A stretch of DNA of 32,000 bases, taken from NCBI GenBank assembly GCA_902384455.1, contig CABMCB010000011.1:18090-50089 (forward strand), read 5' to 3'. The first letter of the stretch is position 1, and each line of letters begins with the position of its first letter. The notes below the pieces were generated by a model. That model searched no databases and was not told where the DNA came from. It saw only the letters and a list, made by a program, of their open reading frames with translations. Positions 1 to 32,000 of the stretch are shown here, piece after piece. The position numbers were made by a program, and so were the translations under genes. The stretch comes from an uncultured archaeon (GTDB lineage: Archaea > Altiarchaeota > Altiarchaeia > IMC4 > SCGC-AAA252-I15).

Positions 1-235
1 GAACTTTGACTCCAACGAAGTTTTTTATGACGCTCTTCCAGCTTTCCGCGTACTCAACAGTGAAGCCGCCGCCCCACGCAGCAACCACTTCCTTAACGCT
101 CTCCTCAACCCGAGGGTCGCGGGCATCCATAATAACCTTACCTGCCCCAAAAGCCCTCGCAGTCAAGCACACGTGAGTAGAAAGCCGCTTGTCCCTACCC
201 ACCCTATGACCCAACCTGAGCACGGTCACTTCCAT
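1..235 (-). CDS. trm56: tRNA (cytidine56-2'-O)-methyltransferase aTrm56, N-terminal part; the gene runs off the left edge
   Basis: Own minus-strand translation from the ATG at 235 gives MEVTVLRLGHRVGRDKRLSTHVCLTARAFGAGKVIMDARDPRVEESVKEVVAAWGGGF... The VLRLGHRxxRDKRxxTHVxLxARAFGA block is the characteristic N-terminus of archaeal SPOUT-class aTrm56. It is absent from the ORF track because no stop codon lies inside the window. Confidence 0.8.
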   Translation of the reverse strand, partial: MEVTVLRLGHRVGRDKRLSTHVCLTARAFGAGKVIMDARDPRVEESVKEVVAAWGGGFTVEYAESWKSVIKNFVGVKV

Positions 236-332
236 GGTGAATACTTTTTGACGCCGCCTTTTATTAGGAGGAGACCGGACGAATTACCGCGTTTAGGCCG
301 ACTTTTAGCGGCTGCCTCCCATTGTCTTTCTG

Positions 333-1901
333 ATGAGTGAAACAGTAGAAGACGCAGGCGGCCACCATCATAAGGCGCTTCACGCTACTCCGCTGCGCTC
401 TGTGATGCTCAAATCCAGCATCTGGATGCTGGTCGGACTCTTTTTCACACGATTCTTGGGTTACGTATTCAACAGCTTACTTACCAAAAGCTTCAGCGAA
501 GCAGAATACGGATTTTACTCTCTCCTTTGGAATGCCCCAATGTTTGTGGCCACCGTCGCCTTAGTCAGCGTCGGAGCGGCAGTCGAAAGGTACACCGCCT
601 ACTACCGAGGACTAAACAAGAACGACGAGGCGGCTTCGGCGGCAGCCACAGGATTCGCCATAAACCTCATCCTAACGTTAGCTGTGATAGCGGTATTCGC
701 ACTAGCTTATGCGACTGGAACCGTATCACTCACACCCCTCGAAGCTGTGGTCGCAGCCGTATTCTTCATCGCCCAAGGCCTGAACCTCTGGATGAACGGC
801 GTACTGACAGGATACCGCCGCCCGGAACGCACAGTACTATACAACTTCCTCCACTACGCAATAAGAGTCCTTCTTGTCGCCTCAGTAATCGCGATAGGCC
901 TGCCCTTCGAATGGGCGCTTACTGTGATGGCGGCGGCATTCGCAGTGACCGTTTTCATCGGCGTTGTTGACGCTTTTGGGTCGGTTTATAGGGGCGCGTT
1001 TAACAGGGGTCTTTCGTCTGAGCTTATTCGTTTCGGCGGGGCGGTGACTGCGGTTGTGGCTGCGGACAATGTGCTTTCGTGGGCGGACATTTTCATAATA
1101 AAGGTTTTCATGACTTCGGCGGACGTGGGGATATACTGGGGCGTGTGGATTCTCGCTTCCATACTTTGGACTCCGCTCCTTGCTATATCTCTCATATACA
1201 GTCCGATAGCCACGGAACTGCTCGGAAGCAAAGCCCACTTGCGCCTAAGCAAACTCACTGTGTATCTGACAGATAGGTACGTGCTGCTTTTTACTCCGGC
1301 CGCGTTCTTCCTGGCTTTGTGGGCGCCTCAGCTGTTGCGTTTTGTTTACACCGGCGCTTACGCTGAGGCATCCAACGTGATGGTCATTCTCGTTGTGGGG
1401 GTGTGGATTGTAGGGTTCTCTCGGGTATTCAGGCAGATTATCACATCCTCCGGAAAGCCGAAGGCGGAGGCGGGGATTATTATTGCTGCGGCGGCCATCA
1501 AGGTCGTGTTGAATGTGTTGCTTATTCCTGCTTTCGGGCTTATGGGGGCGGCTTACGCGACGCTCATCGCTTCGTCGTGGATTGCCTTTAAGTCGTATGG
1601 TTACGCAAGGAATGTGGTTGAGATTCCTTTGTCTTTTGCTACAACGGCTAGAAATCTTTTTGCGTGCGCTTTAGGCGCAGTTCCGGCAGCTTACGCAGTG
1701 TATTTCATATGGGGTTACTTGGGTCTGGCTCTTTCGGCCGTCATTTTCGCGGTAGTCTGGTTTGCGGCTGTGATGCTCCTTAAACTCCTTACGGCGCAGG
1801 ACGTCGACGCGGCAGAGAGCATGTTGGCTAAGGCGCGTTTAGGCGAGGGCGTACGAGGAAGCATTAAGGATTTCCTCTTTTTGGGAGTGCGCGGCAACTG
1901 A
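333..1901 (+). CDS. Wzx-like oligo/polysaccharide flippase (MOP superfamily polysaccharide biosynthesis protein)
   Basis: 522 aa starting at an ATG. The protein is hydrophobic throughout, with about 12-14 predicted TM helices. Length and organisation are typical of Wzx/'polysaccharide biosynthesis protein' families, and it sits in a glycosyltransferase cluster. The family call is by architecture and context only. Confidence 0.65.
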   Translation: MSETVEDAGGHHHKALHATPLRSVMLKSSIWMLVGLFFTRFLGYVFNSLLTKSFSEAEYGFYSLLWNAPMFVATVALVSVGAAVERYTAYYRGLNKNDEAASAAATGFAINLILTLAVIAVFALAYATGTVSLTPLEAVVAAVFFIAQGLNLWMNGVLTGYRRPERTVLYNFLHYAIRVLLVASVIAIGLPFEWALTVMAAAFAVTVFIGVVDAFGSVYRGAFNRGLSSELIRFGGAVTAVVAADNVLSWADIFIIKVFMTSADVGIYWGVWILASILWTPLLAISLIYSPIATELLGSKAHLRLSKLTVYLTDRYVLLFTPAAFFLALWAPQLLRFVYTGAYAEASNVMVILVVGVWIVGFSRVFRQIITSSGKPKAEAGIIIAAAAIKVVLNVLLIPAFGLMGAAYATLIASSWIAFKSYGYARNVVEIPLSFATTARNLFACALGAVPAAYAVYFIWGYLGLALSAVIFAVVWFAAVMLLKLLTAQDVDAAESMLAKARLGEGVRGSIKDFLFLGVRGN

Positions 1902-3805: not shown

Positions 3806-4933
3806 ATGAAGATAGGCCTGACTTCAATAGTCCTTAACAAGAGGGGCGGAATCGCAAGGTACGTGGTCGAGCTCGCTGAACGCTTCGTTAAGGAAAACGA
3901 AGTCCACATAATAACTTCTAGAGTAGAACACCCGGTTCAAGGCGCAATAATACACCAAGAAAATATCATCTGGAACCCCATCTCAGCCCAGGTGGCTTCG
4001 GCCGCTATAAGAAACACTTTGGCTGCGAACCGGCTGAAGAAGGCGGATGTAATCGATTTTATTCATGGGCAGGGGGCTGAGGTTGTTTCTCCTGATGTGA
4101 TTACGGCGCACAGCTGCCATAAGGCGGCGGTTGAGCAGTTCAAGAGGGAGAGGGGGCTGAAGTACCGGCTGATGAAGCCTTTTGAGCCCAGAAGCGGAGT
4201 GGTCCTTGCTATAGAGAGGCGTAATTTCACCGCGAGGAAATTCAAGAAGGCGATAGCCAACTCCCACAACGTCAAAGACGACCTGATGAAGTATTACCGC
4301 GTGCCTGAGGAAGACATCCGGGTCATATACAGCGGAGTAGACACCCAAGAGTTTAACCCCGCGAAAAAGGCGGGAAGAGACAAAATTAGAGAAGAGATAG
4401 GAATCAGACCAGAAGACAAAGTGGCCGTATTCTCAGGCTGGGAATTCAAGAGGAAGGGATTGATGCAGATAGTCAAGGCGATGCCTGAGATGAAAGGCGT
4501 AAGCGTGCTCGTCTTGGGCAAAGACGACCCCGAACCCTACCGCGCAGAAGCCAGAAAACTTGGCGTCGCAAACAAACTATTCTTCACGGGATTCGTGGAC
4601 AACATAAGCGACTACTACGCAGCAGCAGACTTAATGGTTTTCCCCACCGCATACGAGCCTTTCGGCCTCGTGATTATCGAGGCGATGGCTACCGGCTTGC
4701 CTGTGGTGACAAGCAGGTCTGCGGGGGCGGCGGAGATAATTGAGGACGGTAAGGATGGGATTCTTATTGACGACCCGCATAGTTCCAGGGAGATTGCGGA
4801 GAAAGTCAATTACATCATCGACAACGACCTTTTTGACAGCATAGGCGCTAAGGCGTGCGTTAAGGCGAACGTGTGCTCTTGGGACAATATTGCCAGGCAG
4901 ACTATGGACGTCTACAAGGAGATCCTGCAGTAG
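3806..4933 (+). CDS. Glycosyltransferase, family 4 (GT-B fold)
   Basis: 375 aa. The C-terminal E-x7-E region FPTAYEPFGLVIIEAMATGLPVVTSRSAGAAEII is the classic GT4 signature. Confidence 0.85.
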   Translation: MKIGLTSIVLNKRGGIARYVVELAERFVKENEVHIITSRVEHPVQGAIIHQENIIWNPISAQVASAAIRNTLAANRLKKADVIDFIHGQGAEVVSPDVITAHSCHKAAVEQFKRERGLKYRLMKPFEPRSGVVLAIERRNFTARKFKKAIANSHNVKDDLMKYYRVPEEDIRVIYSGVDTQEFNPAKKAGRDKIREEIGIRPEDKVAVFSGWEFKRKGLMQIVKAMPEMKGVSVLVLGKDDPEPYRAEARKLGVANKLFFTGFVDNISDYYAAADLMVFPTAYEPFGLVIIEAMATGLPVVTSRSAGAAEIIEDGKDGILIDDPHSSREIAEKVNYIIDNDLFDSIGAKACVKANVCSWDNIARQTMDVYKEILQ

Positions 4934-5814: not shown

Positions 5815-6831
5815 CTACTCAGCGACTTCCCATGTCTCAAGCCCGTGCATGTCGAAGCTGAATTTCACCGGCTTGGCGCCCGCCTTAGCAAGCGCCGCCT
5901 CCACCTTATGCTCTGTGTTTGGCTCGCAGTAGAAAAACATGTGGCCCCCTCCTCCTGCGCCCGTTATTTTTCCGCCTATCGCCCCGTTTTCGCGGGCTGC
6001 TTTGTATAGTTTGTCTATGAAGGGTGTGGTCATCAGCGGGCTGAATTTCTTTTTTGTCAGCCATCCTTGGTGCAGCAATTCTCCAAAGTAGTTGAAGTCT
6101 CCGCGCACCAGCGCCTGCTTTACTTCCTGAGCCAATGCCTTAGTCTCTTCGAGTGCGTCCACCACGTCCCTGTCGCGTCTGACGTAGCTTTTGGTCTGGT
6201 TGGCGATTATGTCGCCGCTTTTTTCGCGCTCCTGCGCGTGCACCAAAACGATGTTTTTCTCCAACTCCAAGAGGTTGTCGCGCCTTATGCGCAAAGGATT
6301 GATTCGGACGAAATCGTTGCCCTTAAACTCCATGTAATTCAGTCCGCCAAAAACAGCCGCATACTGGTCCTGGCGGCCGCCGAGGTTATGCAGTTCTTCG
6401 CGCTCCAGCTTGAATGCGAGTTCGGCTATTTCGTAGTTTGTTATGCGCCTGTCGCTTAGCGCGTGGTTGAAGAGTCCTATTGCCGCGACGAACGCTGAGG
6501 CTGAGCTTCCCAGTCCGCTTCTAGGGGGGACATCGCTTCGCAGGTAGAGGTTTACTCCGTTTATGGGTTTGAAGTGTTTGGTTACGGCTTTGAGCAGGTC
6601 GAGGTTTCCGTCGTAGCGCAAATCCTTGAGGCGTTTGTACTTTATTTCTGCGTTGTAGTCGTCGCTTCTGAGGCTGACTCCTGCGTCGGGCCTAAACGAT
6701 AATGTTCCCCAAGCGTACTTGTTGATTGTGACGTTGACTACGCACCCGCCGTGCTCTTCGGTGAATGGGCTAACGTCCGTTCCGCCTCCCGCAAAACTTA
6801 TTCTTACTGGAGCCCTGCTTCGGATAATCAT
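5815..6831 (-). CDS. GHMP-family sugar kinase (HddA / D-glycero-D-manno-heptose-7-phosphate kinase-like)
   Basis: 338 aa. It has the N-terminal RAPVRISFAGGGTD motif, the GHMP motif II PPRSGLGSSASAFVAAIG, and the C-terminal GKITGAGGGGHMFFY motif. Confidence 0.8.
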   Translation of the reverse strand: MIIRSRAPVRISFAGGGTDVSPFTEEHGGCVVNVTINKYAWGTLSFRPDAGVSLRSDDYNAEIKYKRLKDLRYDGNLDLLKAVTKHFKPINGVNLYLRSDVPPRSGLGSSASAFVAAIGLFNHALSDRRITNYEIAELAFKLEREELHNLGGRQDQYAAVFGGLNYMEFKGNDFVRINPLRIRRDNLLELEKNIVLVHAQEREKSGDIIANQTKSYVRRDRDVVDALEETKALAQEVKQALVRGDFNYFGELLHQGWLTKKKFSPLMTTPFIDKLYKAARENGAIGGKITGAGGGGHMFFYCEPNTEHKVEAALAKAGAKPVKFSFDMHGLETWEVAE

Positions 6832-6837
6832 CGTAAG

Positions 6838-7974
6838 TTAGTTTTGAGAGGAAACGGACTTATATACTTCCCTGATTTTCTCTGAGACGACGTCCATCGT
6901 AAAGTTTTCTTTGACCCGCACAACACCTCTTTCAGAAAGTTTCTTGCGCAGGACGTCGTCCGTCAAAAGGCGCTTCAACGCCAATGAAAACGCTGATGAA
7001 TCGTTCACCGGAACAACCAATCCGGCATCGCCCACTACATGCGACGGCCCTGAAAAATTGGTGGTCACGCACGGGATCCCGCACGCCATTGATTCAACAA
7101 GGACTAATCCGAAAGCTTCCTGGCGGCTGACGCTGGAGAGAGCAAATACGCGGGCTGCGCGGTAGTAGGTGGGCAAATCTTTTGGGGACACTTTCCCGGC
7201 GAAAACTACGTCAGAAACCCCTAATTGGGCGACCTGCTTTTCAAGGTCGGCAAGAAGCGGGCCTTCCCCGACGATTATTAGGGCGGCGTCAGGCACTTCT
7301 TTTTTGAGGGTGGCGTATGAGTTCAGGAGAACCGGCAGTCCCTTGTATCCTATGAGCCGGCCTACGAAGAGGATTATTTTTTTGCCGGCTATTTTGTGGC
7401 GGGCGGCTATGTCTGGGTCGCCTTTTGCTTTGGCTGTAAATAGTGCGGGGTCTATGAAGCTGGGCGCCTCCACGACTTTGCCCAGATAGTTTTTGAGCAC
7501 GGGAGACTCTTTGGCGTACTCCTGCGTGGTCGCGAAAATTTTGACCGCGCGCCTAAGAGCGGCCTTAAGCAGCAGATTGTACGCGGCCATCGGCAGCGCG
7601 TATATTGCGCTTGTTCTTATTGCGTCTGCGTGGTATGTGACTACAAGGGGTTTTTGGCGAAGATAGCTTGCCGCGCACGCAAAAAGCATGTTGGGGGGGT
7701 CAGGAAGGTTGACGTCGATTAAGTCGTAATCGTCAGACATCAGGTGGAACAAAGTTCCCGGACACCATGGCGCAGAGAAGAAATTGATTAATGACTTGCT
7801 TCTGGCGACTTTGATGCCGTCCATGACTTCAGAAGAAGGAGACGACGACTCGGACGTAGTGTACACCGTAACGTCTTCTTCATGGGCGACAAGCCACTTG
7901 GACAAATCGTAAACCCGAGACTCCAACCCACCCCGATAAGGGGGAAAATGCTTGGACACTTGAGCTATCTTCAT
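6838..7974 (-). CDS. Glycosyltransferase, family 4
   Basis: 378 aa. The N-terminus MKIAQVSKHFPPYRGGLE and the C-terminal SRQEAFGLVLVESMACGIPCVTTNFSG are GT4-type motifs. Confidence 0.85.
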   Translation of the reverse strand: MKIAQVSKHFPPYRGGLESRVYDLSKWLVAHEEDVTVYTTSESSSPSSEVMDGIKVARSKSLINFFSAPWCPGTLFHLMSDDYDLIDVNLPDPPNMLFACAASYLRQKPLVVTYHADAIRTSAIYALPMAAYNLLLKAALRRAVKIFATTQEYAKESPVLKNYLGKVVEAPSFIDPALFTAKAKGDPDIAARHKIAGKKIILFVGRLIGYKGLPVLLNSYATLKKEVPDAALIIVGEGPLLADLEKQVAQLGVSDVVFAGKVSPKDLPTYYRAARVFALSSVSRQEAFGLVLVESMACGIPCVTTNFSGPSHVVGDAGLVVPVNDSSAFSLALKRLLTDDVLRKKLSERGVVRVKENFTMDVVSEKIREVYKSVSSQN

Positions 7975-7980: not shown

Positions 7981-9009
7981 CTACCCCAAGTAACTGTAGA
8001 CTGCAAACACAGCAAACACTACCTCGACGGCAAGCAGAACCAACACAAGCCTCAACTCAGTGATGCCTTTAGTCAAGTACATTATGAGGCGAGGAAGCCC
8101 ATAAACTTCGGAAAAATTAGGGCAAAAAAGAACCATACCCTTACGCTCACACCAAGAAGGATGCTTAAACCTACCCCTAATCTTAAGAAACAACTCCCCG
8201 AAAAACGGGAGAATAAGAATGATGCCGACCTTCTCAATGTTACCGACGATTACCGCGGCCGCAAGAACCGCCCCTATAGTCAGAGTCCCTACGTCGCCTA
8301 TGAAAATGCGCGCAGGATACCAGTTGTAACGCAAAAAGGCCAGCAATGCTCCGGCCATGGCGGCGGACAAAATGAAGGCTTCCACGCTTCCGGGGTAAGA
8401 ACCTAAAGAAAGCGAATAAGAAACCAACGCAACTGATGAAAGCATTATGACGCCCAACCCCGCTTCAAGCCCGTTGAACCCCGCCAGAATGTTTGTGGCG
8501 TTGCTTGCGCCGGTTATGGCAAGGGGAATCAGCACAAGGACGTAGAATATTCCGAAGTCCACCGAACCGACAAAAGGAAGAGTCATCGTAGTCTCCCCCA
8601 CCTTCAATGCGACAAGAGGAAGCGCCGCAAAAATAGGGATAACCGCCTTCACTTCCTGCCGGATAAGAAGCAAGTCATCGACAATACCGATTAAAGCCGT
8701 AATCAAAACCGTCGAGAACGCAGCAAGAAGCGCAGGAAGAGAAAGCCGCAGAGGAATCACGTTGAAAGTAGACAAAGCCACCGCAATAAGAACTCCGACC
8801 AAAAAACCCGTGACGATAGCCAAACCCCCCATCTCAGGAACCGCAACATCACCATCCTTACAACGATCTTTCCCGCTAATACCCGCCGCCAAAAGCCGCG
8901 GCATCATCCACGGTATAAGCAACCACGTCACCACAAAGGCGGCGGCCGGCACAGCAAGGAGTTCCAGCATCTCGCAACGGATATGGGTTTTAGACAATAA
9001 AACAGGCAT
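7981..9009 (-). CDS. aglH: Dolichyl-phosphate HexNAc-1-phosphate transferase (AglH/WecA/MraY superfamily), glycan-initiating enzyme
   Basis: A polytopic membrane protein with GKDxxKxxxxxVPEMGGL and NATNILAGFNGLEAG motifs typical of archaeal AglH / eukaryotic Alg7 homologues. The ORF-track start at 9024 is a TTG. ATG codons occur at 9009 and 8970, and 8970 (MLELLAVP...) is an equally plausible start. Confidence 0.8.
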   Translation of the reverse strand: MPVLLSKTHIRCEMLELLAVPAAAFVVTWLLIPWMMPRLLAAGISGKDRCKDGDVAVPEMGGLAIVTGFLVGVLIAVALSTFNVIPLRLSLPALLAAFSTVLITALIGIVDDLLLIRQEVKAVIPIFAALPLVALKVGETTMTLPFVGSVDFGIFYVLVLIPLAITGASNATNILAGFNGLEAGLGVIMLSSVALVSYSLSLGSYPGSVEAFILSAAMAGALLAFLRYNWYPARIFIGDVGTLTIGAVLAAAVIVGNIEKVGIILILPFFGELFLKIRGRFKHPSWCERKGMVLFCPNFSEVYGLPRLIMYLTKGITELRLVLVLLAVEVVFAVFAVYSYLG

Positions 9010-9040
9010 AACCACCAAATCCAAGGGACGCCAAATATGT

Positions 9041-9048
9041 TTTTAATA
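9041..9048. promoter_or_regulatory. A/T box (TTTTAATA) in the divergent gap between the aglH operon and tRNA-Gly; candidate TATA element
   Basis: The box centre is about 30 nt upstream of tRNA position 1 (9075). Read on the other strand (TATTAAAA), it lies about 35 nt upstream of the ATG at 9009. It is the only A/T-rich element in the 65-nt gap. Confidence 0.35.
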
Positions 9049-9074
9049 CTAAGATACCCTATTTCTTTGCTTGC

Positions 9075-9147
9075 GCGGCTGTAGTGTAGCCTGGTATCAC
9101 TCGAGATTGCCAATCTTGCAACCCGGGTTCAAATCCCGGCAGCCGCA
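9075..9147 (+). tRNA. tRNA-Gly (anticodon GCC), 73 nt, no intron, CCA not encoded
   Basis: Hand-folded cloverleaf. Acceptor stem GCGGCTG/CAGCCGC, D stem GTG(T)/(T)CAC, anticodon stem CGAGA/TCTTG with loop TTGCCAA. T stem CCGGG/CCCGG with loop TTCAAAT, discriminator A. Confidence 0.95.
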
Positions 9148-9169
9148 ACCGAAATAATCCCCCACCTCA

Positions 9170-9201
9170 GACGGAAATATCCGTCCTCTTCTTCGCTTTT
9201 T
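9170..9201 (+). terminator. Stem-loop plus T-run downstream of tRNA-Gly
   Basis: GACGGA-AATA-TCCGTC (9170-9185) is a 6-bp stem with a 4-nt loop. It is followed by a pyrimidine tract ending in TTTTT (9197-9201). Archaeal termination commonly uses oligo-T. Confidence 0.35.
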
Positions 9202-9222
9202 ACCAACACAACCATCCGGGAC

Positions 9223-9230
9223 TTTTAAAG
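9223..9230 (+). promoter_or_regulatory. Candidate TATA box (TTTTAAAG) for sppA; implies a leaderless or very short-leader mRNA
   Basis: The box is centred about 25 nt upstream of the ATG at 9252. No SD-like sequence lies in between. Confidence 0.35.
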
Positions 9231-9251
9231 CAGACGATACAGTAACTTACC

Positions 9252-18577: not shown

Positions 18578-18587
18578 TTTACCGTTT

Positions 18588-18941: not shown

Positions 18942-18943
18942 CT

Positions 18944-19135: not shown

Positions 19136-19137
19136 TT

Positions 19138-19497: not shown

Positions 19498-19504
19498 TGT
19501 TTTA

Positions 19505-19523
19505 CCTCGCTTTCGTTCACAGG
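19505..19523 (-). promoter_or_regulatory. Candidate K-turn hairpin in the rpl7ae 5' leader (possible autoregulatory L7Ae binding site)
   Basis: The transcript-sense sequence is 5'-CC-UGU-GA-AC-GAAA-GC-GA-GG-3', followed by UAAAACA-AUG. This gives a C-stem CC/GG (extendable to ACC/GGU), a 3-nt bulge UGU, and tandem sheared G.A/A.G pairs. An A.C pair and a C-G pair follow, closed by a GAAA tetraloop. The 3' strand contains the SD-like GAGGU, 8 nt before the AUG. Confidence 0.5.
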
Positions 19524-19639
19524 TGTGCGGAAAGGAAAGTGAAAGTAGTATATGTCAAGTGTGTTAATAAATGTGTTTGATTTACGTTGACGGCGTATTT
19601 GCGAATATATATTAGGAGGAATTCCGTATATTATACAAG

Positions 19640-21723: not shown

Positions 21724-21763
21724 GATGAACGTATCTTTGGGGTTTAGCCGTTAAATCAGCGGC

Positions 21764-23035
21764 TTACTCTTTTTTGAGGCTGTAAAGCAGCATCCCGGTC
21801 CGCGGCTTGGGGTAGAAGAAGGTGCTTTTGGGCGGCATCCGGCCGTTTACTTTGGCTACTGCGATTAGGTCGTCGGCGGGTGTGGAGTTTACGAGTATTG
21901 CGGCTTGGGCTTTTCCGTCTTTTACTGTTTGTATTGCTTTTTTGGAGTCGTGTTGGTATGTGATGTTTCCTCCTACTGTCACGTCGTCTTTTATGCCAAG
22001 TATTGAGTCCAGCAGTATGCTGTGCAGTACTGTGACGTCTAGGCGCCTTAAGTGTGAGGGCACGTTGGGTAGTATGCGTTCAGCGTCTTTCTTTGATAGA
22101 GTCAGGACGTGGGCGTCGTGCGGTCCGAAGTACATTACGAATGCGTGGTGGCTTTTGTGTTTTTCAAGTTCGTCTTCGGGTTTCATTCCCGACGGCAGCG
22201 GGTGGACTGTGAACGCGGTCCTTATCTTCTGGAGGGCTTCGTCTGAAGTCATCGGCAGAGTCCTTATGAGCCGGTGGTAAGGCATCACAAGCAGACCGGG
22301 GTCTTCCACGGCGACGACAAAGACCATTACGTAGGCGGCCAGGGTGTTTTCGGGGTGGCGCTGCTTGTACATGTGGGCGGTCTCGTACCGGTGGTGGCCG
22401 TCGGCGATGTATAGGTCTTTTTCTTTGAATGTTTGTGTGATTGTGTTTATTTTTTCTTTGTCTTGTATTGCGTAGAGGCGGTTTATGATGCCTTCTTCGT
22501 CTTTGAATGAGTATAGGGGCGTTGTTTTTGCGGCTTCTTCCAGTAGGGGTTTTATTGCGTTTTCGCCGTCGTTGTATATGAGGAATACGGGGGAAAGCTG
22601 TGTTTTTGCTGCTTCTGTTAGGGCGAGGCGGTCTTCCTTTAGGGTGCTCATTGTGTTTTCGTGCGGGTGTACGCTACCGGACCCTAGAGGTTCAATTTTG
22701 ATTAATGCTTGTAGGCCTAGTCTTCTTCGGGTTATTCCGTCGTGAGCCGTGAATGTTTGTTCGTAGACGTAGTATATGGGTTCTTTTTCTTGGATTATGG
22801 TTTCGTCTTTTATCCATGAGGTGAGGCGTTCTGCGGCTTCTTTGTAGCGGTCTGCCGCTTCGTGGGATTGAGGCAGGTCGACGTGGACTATGTTGTGGGG
22901 CTCTTTCTGCGATAGCCTCGTTCTTAGTTCTGGGGATACTACGTCGAAGGGCGGAGCAGTAAGAAGTGAAAGGTCTTTCTTCAACTCAAGGCTGTACCTT
23001 AATCCTCTGAAAGGCTTTATTTCGACCATCCTCAT
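21764..23035 (-). CDS. DUF1015-family protein (conserved, function unknown)
   Basis: 423 aa. The N-terminal IKPFRGLRY...APPFDVVS and central IADGHHRYETA motifs are the DUF1015 signatures as I recall them. Confidence 0.7.
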   Translation of the reverse strand: MRMVEIKPFRGLRYSLELKKDLSLLTAPPFDVVSPELRTRLSQKEPHNIVHVDLPQSHEAADRYKEAAERLTSWIKDETIIQEKEPIYYVYEQTFTAHDGITRRRLGLQALIKIEPLGSGSVHPHENTMSTLKEDRLALTEAAKTQLSPVFLIYNDGENAIKPLLEEAAKTTPLYSFKDEEGIINRLYAIQDKEKINTITQTFKEKDLYIADGHHRYETAHMYKQRHPENTLAAYVMVFVVAVEDPGLLVMPYHRLIRTLPMTSDEALQKIRTAFTVHPLPSGMKPEDELEKHKSHHAFVMYFGPHDAHVLTLSKKDAERILPNVPSHLRRLDVTVLHSILLDSILGIKDDVTVGGNITYQHDSKKAIQTVKDGKAQAAILVNSTPADDLIAVAKVNGRMPPKSTFFYPKPRTGMLLYSLKKE

Positions 23036-23082
23036 GGACTAAGTAGGATAAGAAGAAAAACAAAGCGGTTTTAACGGCGCAA

Positions 23083-23448
23083 TTAAAGCAGTTTCAGTCG
23101 GCTGGTTATCGCGTCCACGTCTTTGTCTGGTGCGGGCCCTATTGCTATGCATGTTGTTGTGCCGGGTAGTATTTGGGTGAGCCCTGCGTCGTTTATTATG
23201 GCCGTGGGGAGTCCTGCGCGCTGGGCTTCTTGGAATAGGTTTAGCAGTTCGGCTTCGGAGGTGGCCTTGAGCACTATCTTTTTTTGGCCTTCTCTCATCC
23301 ATTCTGTTTTGTGGGGGCTTTTGTCTGCTGCTGTTACGCTGGCGTGTGCTGCTTGTGCGGCGGTTTTTCCTTTGCCCATCAGCAGGTCGGTTCGGATGAT
23401 TATTGCCTGTTTGTATTCGTAGTCGGATGATTTTTTAGTGGCGGCCAC
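23083..23448 (-). CDS. pth2: Peptidyl-tRNA hydrolase, archaeal type (Pth2)
   Basis: KQAIIIRTDLLMGKGKTAAQAAHASV...KIVLKA...AGLPTAIINDAGLTQILPGTTTCIAIGP is canonical Pth2. The only start upstream of the conserved block is the GTG at 23448. Confidence 0.9.
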   Translation of the reverse strand: MAATKKSSDYEYKQAIIIRTDLLMGKGKTAAQAAHASVTAADKSPHKTEWMREGQKKIVLKATSEAELLNLFQEAQRAGLPTAIINDAGLTQILPGTTTCIAIGPAPDKDVDAITSRLKLL

Positions 23449-23489
23449 ATTAAGTTAAGGGGATACGCATTTATTTAGGGGGGATTTTT

Positions 23490-24200
23490 TTGGCGGATGA
23501 GCGCGTTAGGACGGGGGTTTCGGGTTTGGATGACGTGGTTAGCGGCGGTTTGATTAGGGGTCATTCTTATCTTGTTTCTGGTGCGCCGGGTACGGGGAAG
23601 TCGGTTTTGTGTTTGCAGTTTATTGTCAGGGGTGCGCAGGATTTTGGCGAGCCGGGTTTGTACATTACGGTTGAGGAGTCGGCTGATGACGTGAGGGATT
23701 ACGGGAGGCGTCTTGGGCTTCCGGTTGATGCGCTTGAGAAGGCGGGCAAGGTTGTGATTGTTGAGCAGCCGGTCCTTAAGGGGAGCGCTGTTTCCATGGA
23801 GTTCATTGAGAAGTTGATTGAGGATAATGGGGTCAAAAGGGTTGTTCTTGATTCGATTACTCTTTTCGAGTACCTTCACGGGGGGAGGGAGTTGTCCATG
23901 AAAAGGGACGTTCTGAAGTTCATGGATTTGATGAAAAAAAGAGGCGTGACTCTGATGGCAACTGCTGAGCGCAGTCACGCGGATGTTGACCGGCTTGTCT
24001 ACAGCATGGAGGACTTTCTTTTTGACGGACTCGTTCTTTTGTTGCGTTTGCGCTGCGAATCCGGTTTTGAGCATGCTTTGACTGTGCTTAAGATGCGGGG
24101 CGTAAGTCATAGTATGGGTATTCATCCCGTCGTCATAAGCGGGGGCGGAATCTCATTGACCGGAAGCAGGAAGGATTTGAAGGGAGGTAAGGTTAAGTGA
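23490..24200 (+). CDS. Single-domain KaiC/RecA-superfamily ATPase
   Basis: RVRTGVSGLDDVVSGGLIRGHSYLVSGAPGTGKSVLCLQFI contains the Walker A motif, and VVLDSITLFE is the Walker B region. It has a TTG start at 23490, with GGGGGG 6 nt upstream. Confidence 0.8.
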   Translation: MADERVRTGVSGLDDVVSGGLIRGHSYLVSGAPGTGKSVLCLQFIVRGAQDFGEPGLYITVEESADDVRDYGRRLGLPVDALEKAGKVVIVEQPVLKGSAVSMEFIEKLIEDNGVKRVVLDSITLFEYLHGGRELSMKRDVLKFMDLMKKRGVTLMATAERSHADVDRLVYSMEDFLFDGLVLLLRLRCESGFEHALTVLKMRGVSHSMGIHPVVISGGGISLTGSRKDLKGGKVK

Positions 24201-25222
24201 AGGAGGTTTGGGTTAGGGCTGACGGAAAAGAGCCTTGGGATGAGCGGAAGGAGAAGGTGACTTCTGCCCTTGAGTGCGGAGCGGACGCAGTGTGGGTTAA
24301 CGCAGGGGAGGAATCTAGCGTCAGGCGGCTGGGGAAAATCAGGGTCATAAGCGAAGGGAACGCGGCAGACATCAAGGTTGGGCGCGACGTCTATTATCGC
24401 GTGATTGAGAGGAAGGGGGACGAGCAGGCGATATCTAAGGCGGGGCACTCGCACGCTTATGTCGCGGTTAAGACCTCCAACTGGAAGGTTATTCCTCTTG
24501 AGAACCTCATCGCATCGCTTCAGGGAAAGAGCCGCATCATAGTCGAAGTGTCTGACGCCGAAGCCGCTAAAGTCGCGTTGGAGACTATGGAGGTTGGCGC
24601 TGACGGAGTTCTTGTTGACGCAGACAGAGGAGTAATAAACAGGGTGAAGTCTGCCGCTGACGACAGGAACAGGGAGAGGTTTCCTCTTGTTGCGGCTAAG
24701 GTCACTGCGGTAAAGTCAGTCGGCATGGGGGATAGGGTGTGCGTGGATACTGCGAGCATATTCACTTTGGGAGAGGGGATGCTTGTGGGCAGCCAAAGCA
24801 GCGCCCTGTTTCTCGTTCACAGCGAAACGCTCAAGACGGAGTACGTCGCAGCCCGCCCATTCAGGGTGAACGCAGGCGCAGTACACGCCTACGTAAGGCT
24901 CGCAGGAGGCAAGACTGAGTACCTGTCTGAGCTAAAGGCGGGAGACGACGTGCTTGCAGTCAACGCCAAAGGAGAAAGCAGAATCATGGTAGTCGGACGC
25001 TGCAAGATAGAGAGGAGGCCTCTGCTTCTTGTTGAGGCGGAATACGAAGGGAAAAAGATTTCGACGCTCCTACAAAACGCCGAAACCATTTGCCTTGTGG
25101 GCGAAGAAGGCAAAGCCATAAGCGTCTCTGCGATAAAGACAGGCGACAAAGTGCTCGTCCACATAGAGGAAGTTGGCCGCCATTTCGGAATGAAGATTAA
25201 GGAGACGATTAAGGAGAAATGA
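24197..25222 (+). CDS. aroB': 3-dehydroquinate synthase II (archaeal ADH-dependent DHQ synthase)
   Basis: 341 aa with strong end-to-end resemblance to the MJ1249 family. Matching blocks are [81 protein letters not shown] and [15 protein letters not shown]. The GTG start overlaps the kaiC-like stop (GTGA), with GGGAGGT upstream. Confidence 0.9.
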
Positions 25223-28268: not shown

Positions 28269-29678
28269 TTAACCTTTGACTACGCCAAGCGGCGTAAGGC
28301 GCGCGACAGAACGGGAAATTCCAGCAAGCTCCACGCTCCTTATGACTTCGTCCACATCCTTGTACGCCTCAGGCATCTCCTCAGAAAGCACGTCAACGCT
28401 TGCCGCTTTCACCACCATCCCGTCCTTAGCCATCTTGGAGGCCACCTGCGCGCCTTTAACCCGCCTCTTCGCCTCGCTACGAGACATTACGCGGCCTGCT
28501 CCGTGGCATGTGCTCCCGAACGTTTCTTCCATAGCAGTCTGAGTTCCAGTGAGCACGTAGCTTGCCGTCCCCATGCTACCGGGTATTATAACAGGCTGAC
28601 CGATGCTTCGGTACTCGGAGGGGATTTCTTTTCGGCCTGCTGCGAAAGCTCTTGTGGCGCCTTTCCTGTGGACGCAGACTTCGCCTACGCCAGCGTGTTC
28701 CTCGAATTTGGCTATGTTATGGCAGACGTCGTACATGAGGTCGAGTTGGGAGTCGGGGAAAATCTTTGCGAAAACCTGCCGGACATAATGGGTTATCGCC
28801 TGCCTGTTGGCGAAAGCATAATTCACGGCGCACCTCATGGCGGCAAGATAATCCTCCGCCTCCTTGCTTCCGACAGGAGCGCACGCAAGCTCGTTGTCCG
28901 GAAGACTTATTCCGTACCGCCTGCCGGCCTCAAGCATGACGCTTATGTAGTCGTCGGCGACCTGGTACCCGAGGCCTCTGCTTCCGCAGTGAATCATCAC
29001 CGCAATCTGGCCGACGTCGTTTAGGCCGAATGCGTGCGCTGTTTCTTCGTTGAGTATTTGGTCTACCCGCTGTATTTCAAGGAAGTGGTTTCCGCTTCCG
29101 AGCGTCCCGCATTGAGGAGCGCCTCTGGACTTGGCGCGGCTGCTAACCTTACTGGGGTTTGCGCCTTTGATGCGGCCGTTTTCTTCCGTGTGCGCAAGAT
29201 CTTTTTGGGTCGCCATGCCTTCTTTGATTAGGTATGCAGCTCCTTCGGTCAGGACGGAGTCGACGTCTGTTGCGCTAAGATGGAGTTTGCTTTTGCCGCC
29301 CAATCCACAGGGCACCGCATCGAACAATTCGTTTATGAGTTCCTTAAGCTTGGGTTTGACTTCTTTTTCAGTGAGGTTTGTTGTAAGCAGCCGTACGCCG
29401 CAGTTGATGTCGTAGCCTACTCCACCCGGGCTTATAACTCCTTCCTCAATGTTGAACGCTGCGACTCCGCCTATGGGAAATCCGTACCCGTAGTGGGCGT
29501 CAGGCATCGCAAGACTCTCTTTGACTATGCCCGGCAGCTTCGCGACATTAGAGACCTGCCTGTAAACGCCTTCCTCCACAGTCGGAAGAAGTTCACGGCT
29601 AACATAAATCCTGCCGGGAACACGCATACCCTCCTCACGGAACTCCCACACACCAGGCCGAATTTCTTTGGGCGTCAT
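28269..29678 (-). CDS. rtcB: RNA-splicing ligase RtcB (3'-phosphate/5'-hydroxyl RNA ligase)
   Basis: 469 aa. Motifs present are LAMPDAHYGYGFPIGGV, GYDINCGVR, GSGNHFLE, HCGSRGLG and STCHGAGR. There is no intein. Confidence 0.95.
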   Translation of the reverse strand: MTPKEIRPGVWEFREEGMRVPGRIYVSRELLPTVEEGVYRQVSNVAKLPGIVKESLAMPDAHYGYGFPIGGVAAFNIEEGVISPGGVGYDINCGVRLLTTNLTEKEVKPKLKELINELFDAVPCGLGGKSKLHLSATDVDSVLTEGAAYLIKEGMATQKDLAHTEENGRIKGANPSKVSSRAKSRGAPQCGTLGSGNHFLEIQRVDQILNEETAHAFGLNDVGQIAVMIHCGSRGLGYQVADDYISVMLEAGRRYGISLPDNELACAPVGSKEAEDYLAAMRCAVNYAFANRQAITHYVRQVFAKIFPDSQLDLMYDVCHNIAKFEEHAGVGEVCVHRKGATRAFAAGRKEIPSEYRSIGQPVIIPGSMGTASYVLTGTQTAMEETFGSTCHGAGRVMSRSEAKRRVKGAQVASKMAKDGMVVKAASVDVLSEEMPEAYKDVDEVIRSVELAGISRSVARLTPLGVVKG

Positions 29679-31251: not shown

Positions 31252-31330
31252 AAACGTATGATATGAGGGACAGAATATATTAGGGCAGGATGACGACGTT
31301 TTTTAGCCGGCATTACTTTTAGGATAAGTT

Positions 31331-32000
31331 ATGGCGTCCGAAACAAAGAAAGACAAACCAGAAGAAGGCAACGGCGAAACGCCAGCCGAAAAAGGAAAAA
31401 AGAAAAGCATATACTTCTGGTTCGTAGTAGGCGTACTGATAGTCACAATCGGCTTTGGAACATACACCCTAATGAAACCCAAAACAACGGAAACCACAAT
31501 AGCAGGCATAAAAATAATAGCCGAAACACCAATCACAGACCTGATAGGACAAAAAGACGTGTTCATAGGCCAACAAACAGACCCCTCCGCCCTAACATGC
31601 GCATTCGAAATATCCGCCGTAAGCAACATAGTCCGCCAAGGATACCGCATAGACATCGCCTACGGAGACACAGGAGTCTACATAAGAAAAGACGGCACAA
31701 CAATCCGCGGCCGCACCCCAAACGACCTGCTTAACGCATGCCACGCCTTCCTGTGCGCAAGAGACCAAATTGAGTGCCCCGACAACTTCGACCGCATAAA
31801 GGCCATCGTTTATTCTGCGCCCAAACTTAACGCAGTAGTAGACTCGAACCTCTCATCCAACGCAACCCGAAACTACCCTGAACTGATGGGCGTATTAGGT
31901 TACGTTCAAGCTCAGCGCGCAGACACCAACGGCGACGGAGTACTAAACCAAACGGAGATAAGCGAAAACACGGTGTACATATTCCCCTACCTCCAAGACG
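31331..32000 (+). CDS. Partial CDS (runs off the right edge): N-terminally anchored protein with an EF-hand/dockerin-like Ca-binding loop
   Basis: Own translation from the ATG at 31331 gives 223 codons with no stop: MASETKKDKPEEGNGETPAEKGKKKSIYFWFVVGVLIVTIGFGTYTL...ADTNGDGVLNQTEISENTVYIFPYLQD. It has a charged N-terminus, one TM, four Cys, and a DxNxDGxxxxxE loop at 31922-31957. It is not in the ORF track because it lacks a stop. The listed antisense ORF 31303..31656 is rejected. Confidence 0.6.
   Translation, partial: MASETKKDKPEEGNGETPAEKGKKKSIYFWFVVGVLIVTIGFGTYTLMKPKTTETTIAGIKIIAETPITDLIGQKDVFIGQQTDPSALTCAFEISAVSNIVRQGYRIDIAYGDTGVYIRKDGTTIRGRTPNDLLNACHAFLCARDQIECPDNFDRIKAIVYSAPKLNAVVDSNLSSNATRNYPELMGVLGYVQAQRADTNGDGVLNQTEISENTVYIFPYLQD

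What the first reader, a model, noticed from the sequence alone, without database searches (positions are those of the whole stretch)
1..32000. Block-wise flipping of keto/amino (G+T vs A+C) strand skew, independent of gene borders and orientation
Read by eye and spot-checked by hand counts, the plus strand alternates between G+T-rich and A+C-rich blocks.

Hand counts of G+T per 60 nt:
- 961-1020: 44/60
- 17761-17820: 41/60
- 9361-9420: 11/60
- 8761-8820: 19/60

Approximate A+C-rich blocks: 1-950, 1170-1260, 2800-3990, 4200-4680, 5210-5920, 6850-7150, 7720-10020, 11360-11560, 11760-12330, 13960-16260, 16750-17040, 24800-26540, 27230-28500, 29470-29900, 31300-32000.

Approximate G+T-rich blocks: 960-1170, 1270-2790, 3990-4200, 4680-5210, 5920-6850, 7150-7720, 10020-11360, 11560-11760, 12700-13960, 16260-16740, a long 17700-24800 block, 26560-27230, 28500-29470, 29900-30680.

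The switches fall inside intact genes. Examples are the flippase near 960, the GT4 gene at about 3990/4200/4680, sppA near 10020, and DHQ synthase near 24800.

The 17.7-24.8 kb block runs through minus-strand genes (whose codons then end in A/C) and plus-strand genes (whose codons end in G/T). The skew therefore follows the DNA strand, not the coding strand.

In sppA codons 150-250, third positions are almost exclusively A or C. In the KaiC-like gene they are almost exclusively G or T.

NNA<->NNG and NNC<->NNT changes are nearly always synonymous transitions. The two codon usages are therefore interconvertible by a strand-specific C->T plus A->G (deamination-type) bias that saturates silent sites.

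I know of no standard feature that flips replication-type skew every few hundred bp within reading frames. Possible explanations:
- Mosaic recombination between lineages whose homologous regions sit in opposite replication orientation.
- Very dense or variable replication initiation.
- Strand-specific ssDNA exposure or editing.
- Assembly chimerism between strains.

The skew also explains the many long spurious antisense ORFs, because T-poor strands lack stop codons.
Basis: seen in the sequence. Interest (0 to 1): 0.75.

Follow-up and report, generated by a model that had tools for sequence, protein, structure and literature searches.

The report
Keto-skew sawtooth anchored at GGCC sites
In this uncultured archaeon's DNA the silent codon positions switch every few hundred bases between G/T-rich and A/C-rich, even inside genes. 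More than half of the clear A/C-to-G/T switches sit on the 4-base palindrome GGCC, as if each GGCC were a tiny replication origin; I know of no described precedent.

Summary
The four hand counts are exact.

**The blocks**
- G+T at synonymous third positions (K3) is blocky inside genes after controlling for amino acids (z = 25.7).
- Only the keto/amino axis is blocky. G+C versus A+T and purine versus pyrimidine are not.
- The same genes in the two nearest syntenic relatives show nothing (z about 0).

**A DNA-level process**
- The two block types have exactly complementary third-position compositions, in genes of either orientation.
- Synonymous Leu first positions and conservative amino-acid pairs (V/I, A/T, R/K) shift in the same direction.
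- This points to a strand-symmetric, transition-type process acting on DNA. It does not fit codon selection or an assembly artefact.
- Block borders ignore gene borders.

**New result: GGCC**
- GGCC marks the amino-to-keto jumps. The site-centred step has t = 8.2, against |t| < 4.1 for every other 4-mer.
- GGCC lies within 20 nt of 16 of 30 confident amino-to-keto borders, but of only 1 of 28 opposite borders.
- On each strand, DNA 3' of GGCC is G+T-rich for about 400 nt. The relatives show no such effect.

**Reading**
- Best explanation: a GGCC-anchored, outward-directed strand asymmetry (nick- or primer-initiated synthesis or strand displacement), added to large per-gene differences in mean skew.
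- The enzymology is inferred, not shown.
- Mosaic recombination and chimerism are disfavoured.

The parts
1..32000 (.). Mosaic of keto-rich (G+T) and amino-rich (A+C) blocks on the plus strand. There are 109 Viterbi segments, median 145 bp. It is strongest at synonymous third positions (about 0.22 versus 0.78).
17746..24125 (+). Longest keto-rich stretch on the plus strand, interrupted only by five 37-106 bp amino patches. It spans the minus-strand genes S19e, NDK, L24e, S28e, L7Ae, GluRS, DUF1015 and PTH2, whose codons end in A/C (K3 0.12-0.25). It also spans the plus-strand KaiC-like gene, whose codons end in G/T (K3 0.76). Its left edge lies at the GGCC pair 17748/17769.
8560..10238 (+). 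Longest amino-rich block (plus-sense K3 0.14). It runs from the 5' half of the minus-strand GT_4 membrane glycosyltransferase gene, across tRNA-Gly, through nearly all of plus-strand sppA. It ends 24 nt before the GGCC at 10262.
897..900 (.). GGCC at the amino-to-keto switch inside the flippase gene (border at 914).
4000..4003 (.). GGCC at an amino-to-keto switch inside GT4a (border at 3989).
4664..4667 (.). GGCC at an amino-to-keto switch inside GT4a (border at 4670).
6375..6378 (.). GGCC at an amino-to-keto switch inside the GHMP kinase gene (border at 6371).
7046..7049 (.). GGCC at an amino-to-keto switch inside GT4b (border at 7058). A second case in the same gene is the GGCC at 7585, with the border at 7598.
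10262..10265 (.). GGCC at the amino-to-keto switch at the 3' end of sppA (border at 10239). The keto block that follows continues into the convergent Cas4-like gene.
16230..16233 (.). GGCC at an amino-to-keto switch inside DUF4350 (border at 16245).
17209..17212 (.). GGCC at an amino-to-keto switch inside hyp189 (border at 17202).
17748..17751 (.). GGCC at the left edge of the long keto-rich stretch, at the 3' end of S19e (border at 17744). A second GGCC lies at 17769.
25017..25020 (.). GGCC at an amino-to-keto switch inside DHQS-II (border at 25004).
28493..28496 (.). GGCC at an amino-to-keto switch inside RtcB (border at 28485). Further cases are 28926 (border 28935) and 29656 (border 29662).

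Best explanation
**What is shown**
- The window carries a strand-asymmetric, transition-type compositional bias. On one strand amino bases are replaced by keto bases (A->G and C->T), which is the same as G->A and T->C on the other strand.
- The bias has driven silent sites close to an equilibrium under purifying selection.
- Its polarity is set locally, not by gene orientation. A large part of the polarity map is anchored at the palindrome GGCC.
- On each strand, DNA 5' of a GGCC is A+C-rich and DNA 3' of it is G+T-rich for about 400 nt. The plus-strand skew therefore jumps up sharply at GGCC and drifts down between sites, giving a sawtooth.
- This is the geometry of a replication origin, where the outward-growing strand is keto-rich. 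Here it is repeated every ~300 bp.

**What is inferred**
- GGCC is probably the entry point of a recurrent DNA transaction that runs outward on both strands.
- Candidates for the initiating event are a nick made by a GGCC-specific system, such as a restriction-modification nickase, a phosphorothioation site (GpsGCC) or Vsr-type repair, or a preferred priming site.
- The nick or primer would be followed by strand-displacement or repair synthesis.
- The 3' side would become keto-rich for one of two reasons. Either the displaced strand is deaminated while single-stranded, or the resynthesised strand accumulates G.T-mispair errors.
- Because the sites are fixed in cis, the polarity persists long enough to saturate silent sites.

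**Second component (shown; cause unknown)**
- Genes differ widely in mean skew.
- Coding strands are A+C-rich on average, and extremely so in the ribosomal-protein, NDK, GluRS, DUF1015 and PTH2 genes.
For: **DNA-level and strand-symmetric**
- The two block types have complementary third-position compositions, and the values are the same in + and - genes.
- P(G|purine) in coding-keto (cK) blocks is 0.82, against P(C|pyrimidine) of 0.83 in coding-amino (cM) blocks. P(T|pyrimidine) in cK blocks is 0.64, against P(A|purine) of 0.69 in cM blocks.
- Leu TTR versus CTR tracks block state (OR 4.2, p 1e-15). Arg CGR versus AGR does not.
- Within-gene amino-acid shifts go the same way: V/I 1.83, A/T 1.42, R/K 1.38, M/T 1.53 (all).
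- Only the keto/amino axis is blocky.
- The effect is specific to this organism.
- Borders are independent of gene borders.

**GGCC**
- Enrichment at amino-to-keto borders: 19 observed against 5.9 expected.
- Site-centred step +0.167, t = 8.19. The next 4-mer, CGGC (4.06), overlaps GGCC. The null sd is 1.0, with a maximum of 3.4 in 1000 random site sets.
- The positional model gives dLL 132-149 at length scales of 200-400 nt, against a maximum of 21.7 for random sites. It adds dLL 138 on top of per-gene intercepts.
- No other plain or gapped palindrome has an effect.
- The step is seen at four-fold sites (t 6.8), at non-coding sites (t 3.5), in both the A<->G and C<->T components, in + and - genes, in all three frames and in both halves of the window. 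A gene-free test gives t 7.6.
- GGCC lies within 20 nt of 16 of 30 amino-to-keto borders and 1 of 28 keto-to-amino borders (OR 47, p 1e-6).
- Only 1 of 107 GGCC sites sits on a keto-to-amino transition, against 12 expected.
- The effect reaches about 400 nt.

**Precedents for the components**
- GGCC-specific modification and cleavage in archaea (SuaI/M.SuaI, PMC5809426).
- GpsGCC phosphorothioation with a proposed nick intermediate (PMC6435447).
- Upward skew jumps at fixed origins, known as N-domains (PMC2764438).
Against: - GGCC position explains only about 20% of the likelihood gain of a two-state HMM. Adding a single gene-orientation term raises this to about 34%.
- Only about 25% of GGCC sites are clear switch points. 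79 of 107 lie inside uniform blocks.
- 11 of 30 confident amino-to-keto borders have no GGCC within 40 nt.
- Per-gene means explain more than GGCC does (dLL 608). Their cause is not established.
- No GGCC-specific enzyme gene is visible in the 32 kb, and the rest of the genome could not be fetched.
- Everything rests on one 32-kb window of one metagenome-derived contig.
- GGCC is a palindrome, so a DNA-level polar effect cannot be told apart from an effect read along either RNA.
- A residual correlation between neighbouring codons (0.19 at lag 1) is unexplained.
Confidence: 0.5

Rival explanations
1. Mosaic homologous recombination. Short tracts come from related lineages in which the same genes sit in the opposite replication orientation and so carry the opposite silent-site skew.
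For: - Blocks are tract-like (median 145 bp) and ignore gene borders.
- The two block types are exact complements, as expected for leading- versus lagging-strand versions of one locus.
Against: - Recombination breakpoints should be symmetric. GGCC instead marks 16 of 30 amino-to-keto borders and 1 of 28 keto-to-amino borders.
- From the compositions, donor and recipient would share only about 20% identity at third positions, or roughly 70% overall. That is far below what homologous recombination normally tolerates (established knowledge).
- No lineage closer than 69% RtcB identity exists in 5.8 billion proteins.
- Nearly every gene would have to be mosaic.
Confidence: 0.08
2. Transcription-associated asymmetry. 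Blocks would be sense and antisense transcription units, with the template strand becoming keto-rich, for example through transcription-coupled repair synthesis. This would be the main driver, with GGCC only a modifier.
For: - Gene-level means explain much of the variance (dLL 608).
- The genes expected to be highly expressed (ribosomal proteins, NDK, GluRS) are uniformly and extremely A/C-ending.
- Blocks run across tandem, probably co-transcribed genes (r = 0.72).
- KaiC and hyp143, which lie antisense within the long ribosomal-protein block, carry the opposite coding-sense skew.
Against: - Borders show no enrichment at gene starts or ends.
- The median block is 145 bp, with many runs of 7-14 codons.
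- The sign is opposite to the known transcription-associated bias, in which the coding strand is G+T-rich (established knowledge).
- The hypothesis does not predict a palindromic 4-mer at one border type.
- Relatives with the same operon show nothing.
Confidence: 0.15
3. Codon-level selection. A/C-ending codons are the Watson-Crick-decoded, fast codons and G/T-ending codons are wobble-decoded, and selection strength varies along and between genes.
For: - Highly expressed genes use A/C endings.
- There is a weak rise of G/T endings at codons 11-30.
Against: - G/T-ending blocks reach 0.8-1.0, far past the neutral 0.5, and are the exact complement of the A/C-ending blocks.
- Leu first positions, amino-acid composition and non-coding DNA shift in the same direction.
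- The relatives' ribosomal-protein genes have K3 of 0.39-0.57.
- The GGCC step is unrelated to reading frame.
Confidence: 0.03
4. Artefact. The contig is a chimeric or consensus assembly of strains, or carries chemical or enzymatic base conversion introduced during library preparation.
For: - The contig is a metagenome assembly, and raw reads could not be inspected.
- The A->G plus C->T pair is also the signature of deamination damage.
Against: - The changes are filtered by selection. A falls from about 0.33 to 0.09 at third positions, but only from about 0.30 to 0.25 at first and second positions.
- All 34 ORFs stay open, and most have strong Pfam matches. RtcB scores 592 bits and DHQS 436 bits.
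- Assemblers cannot join haplotypes that differ at most third positions.
- An artefact does not predict the one-sided GGCC association.
Confidence: 0.04
5. Selection for nucleic-acid structure. A/C-rich arms would pair with G/U-rich arms around GGCC centres, forming hairpins or cruciforms.
For: An amino-rich stretch followed by a keto-rich stretch is the compositional signature of an inverted repeat centred at the switch.
Against: Flanks of the same GGCC site are no more complementary than flanks taken from different sites. The z scores are +1.2 at arm positions 1-5, +0.7 at 6-10, -0.9 at 11-20 and about -3 beyond 20 nt.
Confidence: 0.02

Closest known systems
Replication-associated strand asymmetry with sharp upward skew jumps at origins and gradual decline between them (bacterial GC/TA skew; mammalian N-domains, PMC2764438)
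   Same: - G>C and T>A occur together on the outward-growing strand.
- The jump at a fixed cis site is sharp, and the return between sites is diffuse.
- The bias accumulates at silent and non-coding sites over evolutionary time.
   Different: - The scale is about 0.3 kb, not 0.1-5 Mb.
- The anchor is a 4-bp palindrome present about 111 times in 32 kb.
- Switches occur inside genes.
- The amplitude at silent sites (0.2 versus 0.8) is, to my knowledge, larger than in any cellular chromosome.
- It is not shown that GGCC initiates replication.
Vertebrate mitochondrial heavy/light-strand asymmetry (deamination of the displaced single strand; own knowledge)
   Same: - The same mutation pair (A->G plus C->T on one strand).
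- Near-saturation of silent sites.
- Genes on opposite strands have complementary codon endings.
   Different: - Mitochondria have one polarity for the whole molecule, set by OH and OL.
- Here the polarity flips about 100 times in 32 kb of a chromosome that carries ribosomal-protein genes.
GGCC-specific DNA modification systems: SuaI/M.SuaI (GG-m4C-C) in Sulfolobus acidocaldarius (PMC5809426) and Dnd phosphorothioation at GpsGCC with a proposed nick intermediate (PMC6435447)
   Same: - The same 4-bp palindromic target, acted on in both strands.
- The phosphorothioation pathway provides a plausible source of site-specific nicks.
   Different: - To my knowledge, no flanking compositional polarity has been reported for these systems.
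- No such gene was seen in the window.
- Membership cannot be tested without the rest of the genome.
Strand-coordinated mutation clusters around DNA breaks (kataegis-type; own knowledge)
   Same: - Strand-coordinated, deamination-type changes.
- The affected strand switches at a defined point.
   Different: - Deamination of the 3' tails left by 5'->3' resection predicts keto-to-amino at the break. The opposite sign is observed.
- Known clusters are single somatic events, not an evolutionary equilibrium.

Membership tests
Replication-associated strand compositional asymmetry | G>C and T>A occur together on the same strand, at silent and non-coding sites. | tested here: met
   - GC skew and AT skew are anti-correlated (r = -0.57).
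- Third-position composition is G.39 T.33 C.19 A.09.
- Non-coding DNA also steps at GGCC.
Replication-associated strand compositional asymmetry | Polarity changes only at origins and termini, that is, a few times per chromosome. | tested here: not met
   There are 108 polarity changes in 32 kb, most of them inside genes.
N-domain-type sawtooth (jumps at initiation sites) | Sharp upward (amino-to-keto) jumps at fixed cis sites, and diffuse downward transitions between them. | tested here: met
   - GGCC lies within 20 nt of 16 of 30 upward borders and 1 of 28 downward borders.
- K3 declines from 0.66 to about 0.42-0.47 across GGCC-GGCC intervals.
N-domain-type sawtooth (jumps at initiation sites) | The jump sites are sites where DNA synthesis initiates. 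| not testable with these tools
   This needs nascent-strand or Okazaki-fragment mapping, or nick mapping, in the organism.
Transcription-associated strand asymmetry | Polarity follows gene orientation, with the coding strand G+T-rich and borders at transcription-unit ends. | tested here: not met
   - Both polarities occur in genes of both orientations.
- The genes expected to be highly expressed have A+C-rich coding strands.
- Borders are not enriched at gene ends.
Translational codon-usage bias | One preferred codon set, limited to synonymous codon choice and unrelated to the complementary strand. | tested here: not met
   - The two block types are complementary.
- Amino-acid composition and Leu first positions shift with block state.
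- Non-coding DNA is also affected.
Mitochondrial-type ssDNA deamination asymmetry | A->G and C->T bias on the same strand. | tested here: met
   Both components step at GGCC (t 6.0 and 8.1), and both differ between block types.
Mitochondrial-type ssDNA deamination asymmetry | A single polarity set by one pair of origins. | tested here: not met
GGCC restriction-modification or phosphorothioation system | The genome encodes a GGCC-specific methyltransferase, endonuclease or Dnd proteins. | not testable with these tools
   - None is present among the 34 window genes.
- The rest of the contig and genome could not be retrieved.
GGCC restriction-modification or phosphorothioation system | The target site is avoided or otherwise marked in the host genome. 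| tested here: inconclusive
   GGCC has observed/expected 0.82, so it is not clearly avoided. GATC has 0.08.
Break-associated strand-coordinated clusters (kataegis type) | The retained 3' tails are deaminated, giving keto-rich DNA 5' of the break on each strand. | tested here: not met
   The observed sign is the opposite: keto-rich DNA lies 3' of GGCC on each strand.

The most novel reading that the evidence does not exclude
In this archaeal lineage a 4-bp palindrome, GGCC, is a chromosome-wide cis-acting start point for outward-directed DNA synthesis or strand displacement on both strands. These are nick- or primer-initiated 'micro-origins' spaced about 300 bp apart. The resulting strand-asymmetric amino->keto mutation pressure is strong and stable enough to dictate synonymous codon choice, and to shift amino-acid composition, block by block inside genes. 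Local codon usage would then be set mainly by distance and direction to the nearest GGCC, not by translation.
Probability: 0.3. Interest if true: 0.92.

Novelty: categorically new. Interest (0 to 1): 0.85.

Why it matters
If it is real across the genome, this is a new determinant of codon usage and protein composition: position relative to a short DNA site.

It would also be a natural, sequence-readable record of where a strand-specific DNA transaction starts and how far it travels, here about 400 nt.

It would make an uncultured archaeon's DNA repair or replication mechanics testable from sequence alone.

It would show that skew-based origin prediction, codon-adaptation indices, HGT detection by codon usage and ORF calling can all be misled in such genomes. 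T-poor strands, for example, produce long spurious antisense ORFs.

It also gives a concrete search image for other genomes: anti-correlated GC and AT skew at sub-kb scale, plus a step at a palindrome.

Tried and rejected
- **Nearest-neighbour context as the driver.** P(K3 | N2 or next N1) varies only from 0.34 to 0.55, and not along the keto/amino axis.
- **Amino-acid composition or transmembrane segments.** Blockiness survives shuffling within amino acid. The flippase is membrane-spanning throughout, yet it flips at codon ~195.
- **Plus-sense versus coding-sense HMM comparison.** Uninformative: the gain is 697 in both, because most switches are intragenic.
- **Opposite-orientation junction test.** Only 9 junctions, r = +0.3 to +0.4, not significant. 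It rejects coding-sense continuity (about p 0.003 by Fisher z, my calculation) but cannot prove strand continuity.
- **Metagene 5'/3' profile.** Only a weak 5' rise.
- **Other motifs.**
  - No k-mer marks the keto-to-amino borders beyond multiple-testing noise.
  - TCGA has a long-range score (dLL 59) but no local step (t 0.1).
  - GCCGGC gave t 5.4, but on only 12 sites.
  - No gapped palindrome has an effect.
- **Extended inverted repeats around GGCC.** Absent.
- **Fetching more of the source contig.** Failed. The one genome-contig scan found only a 48%-identical relative.
- **Loci from the look-up of encoding contigs.** They were not exported to the script sandbox. They were brought in through DNA alignment chunks.
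- **One logistic-regression script timed out** and was rewritten.

Full report
**1. Source and annotation**

The window is archaeal, with 51% G+C. ORFs with Pfam support give 34 genes:
- a glycosylation cluster (flippase, two EamA, two GT4, FkbM, GHMP kinase, GT_4 membrane transferase, PMT_2);
- sppA, a Cas4-like nuclease, a metallophosphoesterase and DUF4350;
- the conserved archaeal cluster dsDNA_bind, S19e, NDK, L24e, S28e, L7Ae;
- GluRS, DUF1015, PTH2, a KaiC-like ATPase, DHQS-II, cyclophilin and an MBL-fold protein;
- a 562-aa hypothetical protein, RtcB, a SpeE-like membrane protein and a small hypothetical protein.

Two tRNAs are present.

RtcB, GluRS and sppA are identical to NCBI proteins VVB51026.1, VVB51018.1 and VVB51000.1 of an 'uncultured archaeon' on a 66,368-bp contig. 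The nearest RtcB relatives are only 69% identical. Of the hits that carry a source name, most are labelled Altiarchaeota. The contig itself could not be retrieved.

Two syntenic relatives served as controls: L002 (Logan SRR22387775) and L003 (ENA ERZ27250192).

**2.

The four hand counts are exact. G+T per 400 nt ranges from 0.32 to 0.71.

In the window, GC skew and AT skew are anti-correlated (r = -0.57). In L001, L002 and L003 they are positively correlated (+0.61 to +0.75), which is the ordinary purine loading of coding strands.

Per gene, G+T at third positions (K3, coding sense) runs from 0.12 (L7Ae) to 0.86 (hyp117). Within genes, 25-codon windows swing between 0-3 and 7-10 out of 10.

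I shuffled synonymous codons within each gene and amino acid. This keeps protein sequence and gene-level codon usage fixed.
- Observed autocorrelation of K3 exceeds the shuffles in 24 of 34 genes at p <= 0.004, with pooled z = 25.7.
- At four-fold sites z = 14.6.
- The same sites show no blockiness on the G+C/A+T axis (z = 0.25) or the purine/pyrimidine axis (z = -1.4).
- On one and the same set of orthologues, the window gives z = 12.0, L002 gives -0.15 and L003 gives 0.5.
- The relatives' ribosomal-protein genes have K3 of 0.39-0.57, against 0.12-0.24 in the window.

A two-state HMM fits K3 of 0.27 and 0.77, with mean runs of 33-44 codons. Viterbi decoding gives 109 segments: median 145 bp, mean 285 bp, longest 2467 bp.

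The K3 distribution in 30-codon bins is strongly over-dispersed (sd 0.235 against a binomial 0.091). It is broad, not cleanly bimodal.

**3. It is a property of the DNA, symmetric between strands**

I classified codons by block state in the coding sense.
- Coding-keto blocks have third-position composition A.09 C.19 G.39 T.33.
- Coding-amino blocks have A.33 C.43 G.16 T.085.
- Each is the complement of the other, and the values are the same for plus- and minus-strand genes.
- Two independent equalities hold. P(G|purine) in keto blocks is 0.82, against P(C|pyrimidine) of 0.83 in amino blocks. P(T|pyrimidine) in keto blocks is 0.64, against P(A|purine) of 0.69 in amino blocks.
- A tRNA- or translation-based preference gives no reason for these equalities.

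The synonymous first position of leucine follows the block state (TTR versus CTR, odds ratio 4.2, p 1e-15). Arg CGR versus AGR involves no keto/amino change and does not follow it (p 0.43).

Conservative amino-acid pairs linked by the same transitions shift in the predicted direction, even when stratified by gene: V/I 1.83, A/T 1.42, R/K 1.38, V/A 1.28, L/P 1.40, M/T 1.53.

A at third positions falls about 3.5-fold between states. A at first and second positions falls only from about 0.30 to 0.25. The changes have therefore passed through purifying selection. This, together with intact ORFs and strong Pfam scores, excludes a chemical or assembly artefact.

Nearest-neighbour context has only a modest effect, and the effect is not aligned with the keto/amino axis.

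**4. Relation to genes**

Block borders are no closer to gene starts or ends than random positions.

Across 24 same-orientation gene junctions, plus-sense K3 in the flanking 30 codons correlates at r = 0.72. That is the same as for adjacent windows within genes.

Across the 9 opposite-orientation junctions r is +0.29 to +0.43, which is not significant. This is incompatible with coding-sense continuity, which predicts about -0.72. It does not prove strand continuity.

There is also a gene-level component.
- Coding strands are A+C-rich on average: 5738 against 3886 codons, with an orientation coefficient of -0.24.
- This is extreme in the ribosomal-protein, NDK, GluRS, DUF1015 and PTH2 genes.
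- Per-gene intercepts give a log-likelihood gain of 608.

**5. GGCC anchors one of the two kinds of border**

Reverse complementation maps an amino-to-keto border onto itself, so the two border types are physically distinct.

A k-mer count within 30 nt of the 30 confident amino-to-keto borders gave GGCC 19 times against 5.9 expected (p 1.5e-5). Nothing comparable appeared at keto-to-amino borders. Composition alone predicts the reverse: GG followed by CC fits a keto-to-amino junction.

An HMM-independent test measured K3 in the 60 nt to the right minus the 60 nt to the left of every occurrence of each 4-mer.
- GGCC gives +0.167, t = 8.19, n = 97.
- The next 4-mer is the overlapping CGGC (t 4.06). 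All others have |t| < 3.8. The other 15 palindromic 4-mers have |t| < 2.4.
- 1000 sets of 100 random positions give t with sd 1.0 and a maximum of 3.4.

Robustness of the GGCC step:
- It is positive for all NGGCCN flanks and for 75% of sites.
- It holds at four-fold sites (t 6.8).
- It is present but weaker at first and second positions (+0.03 each).
- It is present in non-coding DNA (+0.084, 8 sites, t 3.5).
- It is absent for G+C content.
- It is seen separately for A<->G (t 6.0) and C<->T (t 8.1).
- It is seen in plus genes (t 4.8) and minus genes (t 6.5), in all three frames and in both halves of the window (t 5.6 and 5.8).
- A gene-free version using all positions gives t 7.6.
- L002 and L003 show no step (n = 68, mean -0.026, t = -1.3).

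Position of GGCC relative to borders:
- GGCC lies within 20 nt of 16 of the 30 confident amino-to-keto borders, against a random expectation of 12.6%.
- It lies within 20 nt of 1 of the 28 keto-to-amino borders.
- Counting GGCC within 40 nt instead (19 of 30 against 1 of 28) gives Fisher odds ratio 47, p 1e-6.
- Among 107 sites, 27 sit on an amino-to-keto change and 1 on the opposite change. About 12 are expected for each.

Shape and reach:
- K3 on the plus strand falls from 0.66 just 3' of a site to 0.42-0.47 just 5' of the next.
- When the other neighbouring site is more than 250 nt away, the 3' side stays at 0.65-0.73 and the 5' side at 0.43-0.48. This holds out to about 400 nt, then both return to about 0.52.

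How much GGCC explains:
- A model summing sign(d)exp(-|d|/lambda) over sites gains 132-149 log-likelihood units at lambda 200-400.
- Random site sets gain 4.5 on average and 21.7 at most.
- The model adds 138 units on top of gene intercepts.
- No other palindrome, plain or gapped, has an independent effect (137 patterns).
- The flanks of a site are not inverted repeats of each other.

**6. What this means**

Silent sites are close to saturation while proteins are conserved. The bias must therefore have kept the same polarity at each place for a long time. Single hypermutation events cannot produce this, because they would hit non-synonymous sites as well.

A fixed cis site that sets polarity solves that problem. 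The geometry is that of an origin: an upward skew jump at the site, keto-rich strand pointing away on both sides, and a diffuse return between sites. This is the N-domain picture of mammalian replication (PMC2764438), reduced about 1000-fold in scale.

I therefore infer a recurrent DNA transaction that starts at GGCC and proceeds 5'->3' outward on both strands. It could be strand-displacement or repair synthesis from a site-specific nick, or preferred priming.

The 3' side could become keto-rich in two ways.
- The displaced strand is deaminated while single-stranded, as on the mitochondrial heavy strand (own knowledge).
- The resynthesised strand collects G.T-mispair errors.

The second version would also account for A+C-rich coding strands in highly transcribed genes, if transcription-coupled repair resynthesises the template strand. 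That step is speculative.

GGCC is a documented target of archaeal and bacterial modification systems. Examples are SuaI/M.SuaI (PMC5809426) and GpsGCC phosphorothioation with a proposed nick intermediate (PMC6435447). No such gene lies in these 32 kb, and the rest of the genome is out of reach.

A double-strand break with 5'->3' resection and deamination of the retained tails predicts the opposite sign.

**7. Limits**

- GGCC position explains about a fifth of the HMM gain, and about a third when one gene-orientation term is added.
- Most GGCC sites lie inside uniform blocks.
- 11 of 30 confident upward borders have no GGCC within 40 nt.
- The cause of the gene-level component is unknown.
- After fitting genes and GGCC, a correlation between neighbouring codons of 0.19 remains.
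- All of this comes from one window of one metagenomic contig.

**8. Verdict**

Its recombination and chimerism options are disfavoured.

The finding gains a concrete, testable anchor in GGCC. I know of no described system in which a short palindrome sets sub-kilobase strand-skew polarity inside genes.

Noticed in passing
window 1-32000: GATC occurs only 10 times against 124 expected from base composition (observed/expected 0.08). CTAG has 0.28. The remaining palindromic 4-mers range from 0.52 to 1.43. This suggests strong selection against GATC, for example from a GATC-specific restriction activity.
   Followed up: no
window 12617-12691 (-) and 12654-14732 (+): tRNA-Met (CAT) overlaps the first 38 nt of the longest PMT_2 ORF. 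The real start of that gene is probably further downstream.
   Followed up: no
window 19498-20067: There is a 570-bp spacer between L7Ae and GluRS. It holds a 143-aa plus-strand ORF (19640-20071) with no Pfam match. In L002 and L003 the two genes are about 100 bp apart. The spacer is keto-rich (0.63), like its surroundings, so the ORF may be real or may be a by-product of the stop-poor strand.
   Followed up: partly
window 23490-24200 and 25219-25911: The KaiC-like ATPase gene and the cyclophilin gene are absent from the otherwise syntenic PTH2-DHQS-MBL region of L002 and L003. They are insertions, or losses in the relatives. Even so, KaiC carries the polarity of the surrounding block.
   Followed up: no
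L003 8127-9610: The GluRS gene of relative L003 is called as three fragments (73, 193 and 173 aa). This indicates frameshifts or assembly errors in that contig.
   Followed up: no
window, all genes: After fitting per-gene means and GGCC positions, adjacent third positions remain correlated (0.19 at 3 nt, 0.08 at 6 nt, about 0.05 at 15-30 nt). There are also pure runs of 7-14 codons of the opposite type inside long blocks, for example 3636-3663 (all keto) and 10904-10928 (all amino).
   Followed up: partly
window 10556-12091 (-): Three genes appear to form one operon: a Cas4-like PD-(D/E)XK nuclease, an OB-fold protein and a 112-aa hypothetical protein. This is a possible DNA-end-processing module. 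No link to the skew was tested.
   Followed up: no
window, e.g. 23475-24125 (-), 5079-5861 (+), 9200-9697 (-): Long antisense ORFs with no Pfam match lie opposite real genes. 23475-24125(-) also has a non-coding codon-position composition (first position G 0.16, C 0.41).
   Followed up: partly
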